Origin: Octopus vulgaris | Lineage: Eukaryota | DNA: 64,000 bases | Assembly (NCBI GenBank): GCA_951406725.2 | Contig: OX597837.1 | Location: 7,254,001-7,318,000, forward strand | Reading direction: 5' to 3' | Part shown: positions 8,318-60,893 of the stretch, piece by piece | Layout of the letters: every line of letters starts with the position of its first letter | How positions within the stretch are numbered: the first letter of the stretch is position 1 | Made by a program: the position numbers and the translations under genes | The notes under the pieces: generated by a model | What the model was told of the DNA's origin: nothing | What the model saw: the letters and a program-made list of their open reading frames with translations, nothing else | The model's database searches: none

Positions 8318-8362
8318 TCAGTATGGTGCAAACCGCTGGTAACCACCCCTGTAAACAGTAGC
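8318..8362 (-). CDS. RBFOX1: RBFOX last coding exon (ATVYRGGYQRFAPY*), carrying the C-terminal RFAPY PY-type NLS
   Basis: ctgttgcag|GCTACTGTTTACAGGGGTGGTTACCAGCGGTTTGCACCATACTGA. YRGGYxRFAPY* is the canonical nuclear RBFOX C-terminus. Confidence 0.97.
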   Translation of the reverse strand, partial: ATVYRGGYQRFAPY

Positions 8363-18010: not shown

Positions 18011-18077
18011 CCCATATCCGGTGACTGGTCCGATACTGTGTCCCAAATAGGGGTCTGCCGCATACTCCCTGCCATAC
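18011..18077 (-). CDS. RBFOX1: RBFOX penultimate coding exon, 67 nt (YGREYAADPYLGHSIGPVTGYG), phase 2-0
   Basis: tgcatgtcttacag|GTATGG...ATATGGG|gtaggt. Matches the Fox-1 C-terminal motif YGRVYAADPY and is also seen in ORF 17816..18088. Confidence 0.96.
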
Positions 18078-28306: not shown

Positions 28307-28404
28307 CCAGCCGCGTACGTGGCTGCTGTCGCTGCTACAGTGGGGATTGCATAGCGTGTTGCAGCCGCATAGCCTGCAGCTGCATATGGCTGGGTTGTAA
28401 CAAG
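28307..28404 (-). CDS. RBFOX1: RBFOX exon, 98 nt (LVTTQPYAAAGYAAATRYAIPTVAATAATYAA), phase 0-2
   Basis: gtatttcag|CTTGTT...GGCTGG|gtaagt. Resembles vertebrate GYAAYRYAQP..ATAAAYS; phases are compatible. Confidence 0.93.
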
Positions 28405-30070: not shown

Positions 30071-30128
30071 CTGATATCGATCAGCTGCTGCATATGTCGC
30101 TAAGAAGGGGTCTTGGTGATACACTCCA
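30071..30128 (-). CDS. RBFOX1: RBFOX exon, 58 nt (GVYHQDPFLATYAAADRYQ), phase 2-0
   Basis: gcctttcag|TGGAGTG...TATCAG|gtaagt. Similar to the vertebrate VVYQDGFYGAD segment and also seen in ORF 29954..30139. Confidence 0.93.
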
Positions 30129-31681: not shown

Positions 31682-31829
31682 GCGGCGTACGGTAAAGCTG
31701 CTGCAGTTGTTGTCAAGGGCGTCGGGTGCCTGAATGCTGCTGCTGCCGCTGCTGCGGCGTATACTCCTCGTGCCGTTACAGCCGCTGCTGCTCGACCACG
31801 AGTCAACGTCACACCTCGTAAAGCAGCAG
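31682..31829 (-). CDS. RBFOX1: RBFOX exon, 148 nt, start of the Ala/Tyr-rich C-terminal domain (AALRGVTLTRGRAAAAVTARGVY...LPYA), phase 1-2
   Basis: tttctgtag|CTGCTGCT...TACGCCGC|gtaagt. GC-rich coding island resembling vertebrate AAYRGAHLRGRGR..VY..FR; phases match both neighbours. Confidence 0.93.
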
Positions 31830-46585: not shown

Positions 46586-46646
46586 CATTTGGAATTGCGG
46601 GGTTAACGGCTTTTTTGGTCATAACACGGGCAGTGGCATTGTTCAC
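46586..46646 (-). CDS. RBFOX1: RBFOX exon, 61 nt (VNNATARVMTKKAVNPAIPN), phase 0-1
   Basis: ctag|GTGAACAATGCC...CCAAATG|gtaag. VNNATARVMT is the RBFOX signature at the end of the RRM, and the exon is in frame with the 93-nt exon. Confidence 0.97.
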
Positions 46647-59360: not shown

Positions 59361-60180
59361 GTCATAGAGAGCAGAATCATAGACTAGTGTACTTCATTGT
59401 TCTTGTATTTTAAGGAATCAACAAGTGTTTGATTCCATGAAATCGAGGCAGGTAATGAAAGACAGCATATGAAATTCCTGACTCATAGGATTTCATACCT
59501 TCACACCTGTTCTCACAACACAAGGCCCTAAATTTTTAGGAGAAATACCTCACCTACAGTATATAACTGGTATTAAAAATAGCTTTGTTTAATGTTAACA
59601 GGGTACAATTTTATGTGAGAATTAGAAAAGATTTGGAGATAAATAAATATATATACATATATACAATACACACACGGAGATTAATTTCCAGGTACATCAT
59701 ATCTACCTGGACACATCAAAATTTCTTTGATTGTTATGTGTATACACACACATCATCATTTAACTTCTGCTTTCCATGTTAGCATGGGTTGATGCATGTA
59801 TATACACACATATACACAAGCATGTGTATAGATACTTAGTTGTATGTCTATAAATATAATGAATATATTTGCCAAATTTATGTGTATATTTGAAAATGTG
59901 ACCATATATATATTTTGCTAACTTGCATATGTGTGTGTGTTTATGTGTGTATATTCATATATACACACATGTATATATATATGTATATATATAAGAAAGT
60001 AGGGCAGGATAGACAGAGGGATAGATAAAGGTAGACAGATAGAAACATTTAAAAAATAAAAAAGAAAGAAAGGAAGGTGTTTTTTTTTATGAGGAGGAAG
60101 AAGAGGAAAGACAAGAAGATAGAGAATGAAAAAAAATATGGCTTTCAGTGTAGTTGCAAGTACCACAGCTGATAATTAAC

Positions 60181-60289
60181 CATGCACCTCAATTTTTCGG
60201 CCCTCAACAACTGTTCCGTTCAGTTTTTCACGTGCTCGGTCGGCGTCAGCGCTATTTTGGAAAGTTACAAAACCAAATCCCTGCATGCA
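60181..60289 (-). promoter_or_regulatory. UGCAUG RBFOX-binding sites at the 3' splice site (60284-60289) and within the 5' splice site (60181-60186) of the RRM exon
   Basis: Acceptor TGCATGCAG| and donor |GTGCATG are read directly; a further TGCATG lies at 60594-60599. Confidence 0.85.
60188..60280 (-). CDS. RBFOX1: RBFOX/Fox-1 exon, 93 nt, second half of the RRM ([31 protein letters not shown]), phase 0-0
   Basis: The minus strand reads gtgcatgcag|GGATTTGGT...AAAATTGAG|gtgcatg. The translation carries the RNP1 motif GFGFVTF and is near-identical to the vertebrate RBFOX RRM exon of the same 93-nt size. Confidence 0.98.
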
Positions 60290-60533
60290 CGAGGAAAATA
60301 ATAATAATAATAATAGTAATAATAGTAATAGTAATAATAATAATAGTAATAATAGTAATAATAATAAATGATGATGAGGGTGGCGATGATAATAATGATG
60401 ATGAGGATGAAGATAATAATAATGATAATAATAATAATAGTAATATCATAATAATAATGATGATGAGGGTGATGATGATAATGATGATGAGGATGAAGAT
60501 AATAATAATAGTACTATAATAGTAATAATAGTA

Positions 60534-60575
<42 letters not shown>

Positions 60576-60893
60576 CAATAGCATTAAGTCAAGCATGCAT
60601 TAAAATCGTGCAAAATGTAGTGCGGTTTTCTAAACAAAAAAAAAGGAAATTTTGCGAGGGTTTTTTTTTTAATAATTTTTTTTTATTAATCTACTCTTTC
60701 AATTACTTTTTTCTTTTGTTTTTAGTGTTGTGTTCTTTTGTTGGTTTTTTTTTGTATTTTTTTAAACTTTTCCTTCTTTGGCTTTTTTTTTCTTTTTTTA
60801 CAAAAAAAATTTCTGTTCGTTTGTTAATGAAGCTTTCGCTTTAATTTTTCAAATAAAATAGATATAAATATATATAGATATATGTATGTACGC

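What the first reader, a model, noticed from the sequence alone, without database searches (positions are those of the whole stretch)
60181..60289. The RRM exon is bracketed by RBFOX sites at both splice sites: vertebrate-type dominant-negative autoregulation in an invertebrate
Seen: acceptor ...TGCATGCAG| and donor |GTGCATG, on a 93-nt frame-preserving exon. Established: vertebrate RBFOX proteins repress this same exon through UGCAUG elements, yielding a delta-RRM dominant-negative isoform. Inference: the circuit predates the protostome-deuterostome split. The non-consensus donor GTGCAT suggests selection for the motif at the cost of U1 pairing.
Basis: partly seen in the sequence, partly recalled or inferred. 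Interest (0 to 1): 0.75.

Follow-up and report, generated by a model that had tools for sequence, protein, structure and literature searches.

The report
Self-limiting exon of octopus Rbfox
The octopus gene for the splicing regulator Rbfox carries copies of its own binding motif inside both splice sites of the exon that encodes half of its RNA-binding domain, and many mollusc-like and insect-like copies of this exon carry them at the same places, so the protein likely limits itself by skipping this exon, a feedback already shown in vertebrates and reported for flies.

Summary
Observation confirmed. The 93-nt, in-frame exon 60280-60188 (-) belongs to the one Rbfox gene found in this octopus genome. 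It encodes the second half of the RRM. TGCATG overlaps its acceptor and its donor. Of 46 distinct genomic copies from metagenome contigs, 22 carry the donor motif (12 GTGCATG, 10 GTGTGCATG) and 18 the acceptor motif, against 0.0014 per position in flanks. Three more RBFOX sites are conserved: two upstream, which a 277-nt repeat has pushed about 300 nt away in octopus, and an exonic GCACG. Proteins lacking exactly this exon are annotated in 11 mollusc species, an annelid, 31 insect species and many vertebrates. The neighbouring in-frame exon was skipped in 0 of 92, against 8 of 92. Skipping in octopus itself is not shown: 0 of 16 cephalopod proteins lack the exon, and the read test was uninformative. 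The deep-origin idea is supported but not new, since a Drosophila equivalent and C. elegans asd-1 autoregulation are mentioned in print. Binding and dominant-negative action are untested. New member of a known circuit, with a better map of its sites.

The parts
60188..60280 (-). 93-nt in-frame RRM exon of Rbfox (RNP1 and second half of the domain)
   Evidence: same region aligns to solved RBFOX1 RRM, E 1.5e-45 for P0122
60284..60289 (-). TGCATG inside the acceptor (-9..-4)
   Evidence: GCATG at -8 in 18 of 46 distinct loci
60181..60186 (-). TGCATG inside the donor (+2..+7); weak donor GAG|GTGCAT
   Evidence: donor motif in 22 of 46 distinct loci
60231..60235 (-). exonic GCACG, a second RBFOX motif, formed by codons Ala16-Arg17
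   Evidence: 28 of 39 distinct exons with Ala-Arg here use GCA-CG
60594..60603 (-). TTAATGCATG: RBFOX site joined to a branch-point-like TTAAT (branch point inferred); at -25..-36 in other animals
   Evidence: (TAATGCATG in 11 of 46 loci)
60607..60612 (-). upstream TGCACG site
   Evidence: within 90 nt of the acceptor in 9 of 46 loci; about 0.016 expected per locus
60297..60573 (.). 277-nt AAT-type repeat that separates the two upstream sites from the acceptor in octopus
60148..60166 (-). degenerate copy of a downstream element (GTSGTAGCAC) shared by insect-like and mollusc-like loci; role unknown
   Evidence: 8 of 46 loci
46586..46646 (-). next exon (VNNATARV...), 61 nt; the acceptor used if the RRM exon is skipped
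   Evidence: spliced to the following exon in one contig of run X5
31682..31829 (-). Rbfox coding exon (AAALRG...)
30071..30128 (-). Rbfox coding exon (GVYHQDPF...)
28307..28404 (-). Rbfox coding exon (LVTTQPY...)
18011..18077 (-). 67-nt frame-shifting exon h with GCATG at -80, -47, -13 and +24; candidate second self-regulated exon
8318..8362 (-). last coding exon, ending RFAPY

Best explanation
This exon encodes half of the RNA-binding domain of octopus Rbfox and has RBFOX motifs inside both splice sites and inside the exon, so at high Rbfox levels the protein likely binds its own pre-mRNA, would block U2AF at the acceptor and U1 at the weak donor, and likely causes in-frame skipping to an isoform predicted not to bind RNA. 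That isoform keeps the C-terminal part and the RFAPY end, so it would lower Rbfox activity by using up transcripts and possibly by competing for partners (dominant-negative; about even odds). Shown here: the motifs, their fixed positions across animals, the weak donor, the frame, and annotated skip isoforms in other protostomes. Inferred: binding, skipping in octopus, the blocking mechanism, the effect of the short protein, and inheritance from the last common ancestor of bilaterians.
For: Positions: 22 of 46 distinct two-intron loci have the donor motif, 18 the acceptor motif at -8, 17 both; background 31 in 22,371 positions. Among the 28 loci with at least 26 of 31 residues identical to the octopus or insect peptide the counts are 22, 17 and 17; among the other 18 they are 0, 1 and 0 (cut chosen after seeing the table). 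Peptides of GTGTGCATG loci L022, L085, L099 equal named insect proteins; those of GTGCATG loci L066, L070, L076, L092 equal named chiton or snail proteins. L046 is 29 of 31 identical to the solved RBFOX1 peptide (read by eye) and has GTGCATG. The exonic GCACG goes with the donor motif: 20 of 22 against 2 of 7 (p 0.003, loci not independent). Exact GSK|VNxAT junction proteins: 8 of 120 hits, 100 of the 239 homologues stored (83 of them vertebrate, whose query favoured them), 36 of 120. Control: skipping of the neighbouring 54-nt in-frame exon in 0 of 92 against 8 of 92. One match per exon in the genome, so no paralogue is needed. Vertebrate mechanism: PMC2777236, PMC3126832 (passages). GCACG as a primary motif: 10.1101/840272 (passages).
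Against: 0 of 16 cephalopod proteins spanning the RRM lack the exon. All skip proteins with a source shown are gene models, none a transcript-assembly product; that most such isoform models rest on RNA-seq junctions is recalled, and 3 of the 8 are 'hypothetical' models that could have missed the exon. Listings favour shorter proteins, so the fractions are not skip rates. Six of the 28 close loci lack the donor motif, as do all 18 divergent ones, including tunicate-like L035. In octopus the two upstream sites are about 300 nt away. Motifs downstream of an exon usually activate it (PMC2777236); repression here depends on overlap with the U1 site, which is inferred. No cnidarian or sponge locus was identified, so the origin has no outgroup.
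Confidence: 0.68

Rival explanations
1. Rbfox binds these sites, but in octopus the result is stalled or unproductive splicing (retention, or a cryptic acceptor leading to decay), not a clean skip.
For: No skip form among 16 cephalopod proteins. The only other AG between the displaced branch-point-like site and the acceptor is at 60515, and using it would add 233 nt, out of frame. Mammalian Rbfox2 also uses cryptic decay exons around this exon (PMC3126832, passages).
Against: Clean skip models exist in 11 other mollusc species. Other YTNAY motifs lie closer to the acceptor, e.g. 60378.
Confidence: 0.14
2. The sites are a relic in octopus: the exon is always included and the motifs persist only because splice-site sequence changes slowly.
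For: No direct skip evidence in octopus; losses in tunicate-like and divergent loci show the sites can be lost.
Against: All five sites are intact, including two purely intronic ones 300 nt away that match mollusc-like loci across a repeat expansion. The donor stays weak while six other donors of the gene are closer to consensus.
Confidence: 0.1
3. The motifs act mainly through RNA structure: the upstream UGCAUG pairs with CAUGCA in the acceptor and hides it.
For: Predicted pair probability above 0.7 in 10 of 15 loci that have both.
Against: This pairing follows automatically from the near-palindromic motif. It is absent in 5 of 15 loci, the partner is 300 nt away in octopus, and it cannot explain the donor or the exonic site. 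Acceptor-to-donor pairing is not supported: at most 0.1 in three window folds and above 0.2 in 0 of 17 loci, although one fold's lowest-energy structure had it.
Confidence: 0.06
4. Chance placement of a common hexamer in a (TG)(CA)-rich genome.
For: 68 TGCATG in the window.
Against: Same offsets in 17 of 46 distinct loci from other animals.
Confidence: 0.01

Closest known systems
Vertebrate RBFOX1/2/3 93-nt RRM cassette exon (Rbfox2 exon 6, Rbfox3 exon 8; delta-RRM isoform)
   Same: Same 31-aa exon with the same boundaries; in-frame skip product; several upstream motifs plus one downstream (three plus one for Rbfox2, PMC2777236 citing Baraniak 2006).
   Different: One gene here, so pure self-regulation rather than cross-regulation among paralogues. 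Two of the five sites are GCACG. The upstream pair is displaced by a repeat. Exact positions of the mammalian sites could not be compared because the primary papers were not held. Skipping is shown in vertebrates and not here.
Drosophila Rbfox1 equivalent alternative exon
   Same: Reported as an equivalent alternatively spliced exon (PMC3126832, citing Damianov and Black 2010); feedback suggested by knockdown data (10.1101/2021.05.09.443278, passage).
   Different: Insect-like loci place the donor motif 2 nt further in (GTGTGCATG), keeping G at +5; no Drosophila locus was examined here.
C. elegans asd-1 autoregulation
   Same: Said to be similar (PMC2777236, unpublished observation).
   Different: No detail seen; no nematode locus was identified in my survey.
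Chicken Rbfox3-d31
   Same: Same deletion. A primer printed in PMC3575530 spans the Ala-Arg codons and its complement contains GCACG (read by eye).
   Different: Described as unstable and inactive, with three downstream UGCAUG predicted to activate the exon. Fish-like L101 fits that pattern (no splice-site motif, four downstream GCATG).

Membership tests
RBFOX (Fox-1) family | single RRM nearly identical to RBFOX1 | tested here: met
   P0122 against PDB RBFOX1 RRM, E 1.5e-45; exon peptides of the window match P0122
RBFOX (Fox-1) family | C-terminal RFxPY end | tested here: met
   last exon encodes RFAPY when exon h is included
Autoregulated RBFOX RRM cassette exon | 93-nt phase 0-0 exon holding RNP1 | tested here: met
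Autoregulated RBFOX RRM cassette exon | conserved (U)GCAUG elements around the exon | tested here: met
Autoregulated RBFOX RRM cassette exon | exon is skipped in part of the transcripts of this species | tested here: inconclusive
   0 of 16 cephalopod proteins; contigs of 4 runs gave no view of the upstream junction; skip models exist in other molluscs
Autoregulated RBFOX RRM cassette exon | skipping depends on Rbfox binding | not testable with these tools
   needs CLIP, knockdown or minigene
Autoregulated RBFOX RRM cassette exon | delta-RRM protein acts as a dominant negative | not testable with these tools
   needs co-expression assay; context-dependent in vertebrates (PMC3575530)

The most novel reading that the evidence does not exclude
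A five-site Rbfox module (TGCACG, branch-point TGCATG, acceptor, exonic GCACG held by codon choice, donor) has kept its order between molluscs and insects, with donor and exonic sites traceable to vertebrates. In octopus it still works across a 277-nt repeat expansion, and a second motif-flanked exon (18077-18011) lets Rbfox also remove its own nuclear-localisation end, giving a two-tier feedback from one gene.
Probability: 0.25. Interest if true: 0.6.

Novelty: new member of a known kind. Interest (0 to 1): 0.4.

Why it matters
Few single splicing events can be traced with their control elements across vertebrates, insects and molluscs. This one gives base-level positions, two alternative donor solutions and natural losses (tunicate-like, divergent copies), which makes it a ready test of how a regulator's site can sit inside a splice site. 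For cephalopod neurobiology it predicts a measurable Rbfox isoform. The concept itself is already established, so the gain is in breadth and detail.

Tried and rejected
Reads: the run search listed no holder on record as RNA. On the downstream exon alone, 1 of 4 runs gave contigs, which showed only the junction to the following exon; this says nothing about skipping. Outgroup: I first took L035 for a non-bilaterian; its nearest named proteins are tunicate (84-87%), so there is no outgroup, and 5 of 5 Styela isoforms include the exon. The group behind the divergent loci (FAHSxDAD class) was not named. Acceptor-to-donor pairing was rejected. Checking exon h in other animals failed because the records are not held. 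The binomial p-values treat related loci as independent and are not relied on; other codons of the exon are also biased. Damianov and Black 2010, Baraniak 2006 and one review (id recalled) were not held; I saw nothing of them directly. Earlier scan findings: none.

Full report
Gene. The window holds the 3' part of an Rbfox gene on the minus strand. The exon peptides match named Octopus proteins (100% over a 48-aa upstream exon; P0122). The genome gave one match for this exon and one for the exon before it. Exon order across the RRM: an exon ending in LKGLLG and a 54-nt exon ending in NERGSK, both beyond the window; the 93-nt exon 60280-60188; and 46646-46586, starting VNNATARV. Removing the 93-nt exon keeps the frame and deletes residues 102-132 of P0122, with nearly all of RNP1.

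Observation. TGCATG lies at acceptor -9..-4 and donor +2..+7. Seven of the other eight exons mapped have no GCATG within 400 nt. The donor GAG|GTGCAT matches 5 of 9 consensus positions, the other six scored donors 6 to 9; one donor was left out because I set its edge wrongly (the consensus is recalled).

Survey of other animals. A pattern for the exon's last ten codons plus GT found 86 stretches in metagenome contigs; 80 were listed. I dropped 2 truncated loci, 15 that lack one or both introns, and 17 duplicates, leaving 46. The donor motif is present in 22: 12 as GTGCATG and 10 as GTGTGCATG. The acceptor motif at -8 is present in 18, and both in 17. Flanking background is 0.0014 per position. 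All 22 fall among the 28 loci closest in protein sequence; the 18 divergent loci have none (cut set after viewing). Taxa are inferred only from peptide identity to named proteins: insects for three GTGTGCATG loci, chiton or snail for four GTGCATG loci, vertebrate-like for L046, salmonid for L101, tunicate-like for L035. The pattern misses exons with other residues, the loci are related, and no non-bilaterian was identified.

TAATGCATG sits 25-36 nt upstream in 11 of 46 loci and TGCACG within 90 nt in 9 of 46. Octopus has both, at 60599 and 60612, aligned well with mollusc-like loci but separated from the acceptor by a 277-nt AAT repeat. An exonic GCACG at 60235 arises from codons Ala16-Arg17: 28 of 39 distinct exons with these residues use GCA-CG, against about 23% expected from other Ala and Arg codons of the same exons, though several other codons are also biased. 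It goes with the donor motif (20 of 22 against 2 of 7). GCACG is described as a primary RBFOX motif (10.1101/840272, passages).

Is the exon skipped? Proteins with the exact GSK|VNxAT junction: 8 of 120 hits of a search blind to this exon, further mollusc and 83 vertebrate records from a junction query, and 36 of 120 from an arthropod query that excluded the exon. By the names listed this is 11 mollusc species, 1 annelid and 31 insect species in five orders (my count). The neighbouring in-frame exon was skipped in 0 of 92 classifiable hits, against 8. These are gene models, not reads. Against: 0 of 16 cephalopod proteins that span the RRM lack the exon. Contigs of four runs on the downstream exon showed only that it is spliced to the next exon in one run, so skipping in octopus is open.

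Mechanism. Most likely Rbfox occupies the acceptor, the branch-point region, the exon and the weak donor as its level rises, and the exon is skipped in frame (inferred from the anatomy and from the vertebrate case; blocking of SF1 and U2AF by Fox proteins at other exons is described in PMC2777236, passages). Whether the product is dominant-negative or just unstable is open; both are described in vertebrates (PMC3126832; PMC3575530; PMC5577181; passages only). Pairing between acceptor and donor was not supported. Pairing of the upstream motif with the acceptor is predicted in 10 of 15 loci but is built into the motif and is unlikely in octopus.

What is known. The vertebrate circuit is established. 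PMC3126832 states that an equivalent alternative exon exists in Drosophila, and PMC2777236 mentions similar autoregulation of C. elegans asd-1 as unpublished. A fly study suggests feedback (10.1101/2021.05.09.443278, passages). So conservation across bilaterians is already proposed. Ten searches of the held library (listings and abstract starts) showed no paper on this exon in molluscs or on the position-level site map, but the primary paper was not held and may show part of it; no supplements were read.

Verdict. A real, selected feature and a new member of a known feedback circuit. Interest 0.4.

Noticed in passing
window 18077-18011 (-): A 67-nt frame-shifting exon with four GCATG at -80, -47, -13, +24 (about 0.12 expected). 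Without it the protein ends HTEVT instead of RFAPY. All 7 O. bimaculoides records seen lack it, which may be real skipping or a gap in that assembly; other cephalopod records include it.
   Followed up: partly
window 60297-60573: The repeat between the upstream sites and the acceptor is almost free of G on the transcribed strand; its only AG is at 60515, a possible out-of-frame cryptic acceptor.
   Followed up: partly
window 60166-60148; L022, L085, L061, L070, L074, L076, L092, L097: Downstream element GTSGTAGCAC shared by insect-like and mollusc-like loci at +22 to +56, degenerate in octopus; in several mollusc-like loci it is followed by TGCTA and could form a hairpin. Role unknown.
   Followed up: partly
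L023-L025, L031, L032, L034, L039, L042, L051, L053, L056, L062, L072, L080, L086, L091: A divergent class of the exon (FAHSxDADxVL...) with no splice-site motifs and often an unusual GAAG acceptor; the group was not identified.
   Followed up: no
L058, L063: Loci with intron-like sequence before the exon but the next exon joined directly after it: partly spliced RNA or loss of one intron.
   Followed up: no
window 46586 and downstream intron: Run X5 has a contig running from the exon into the intron (depth 19.6) beside the spliced one (73.9): unspliced RNA, retention or DNA.
   Followed up: no
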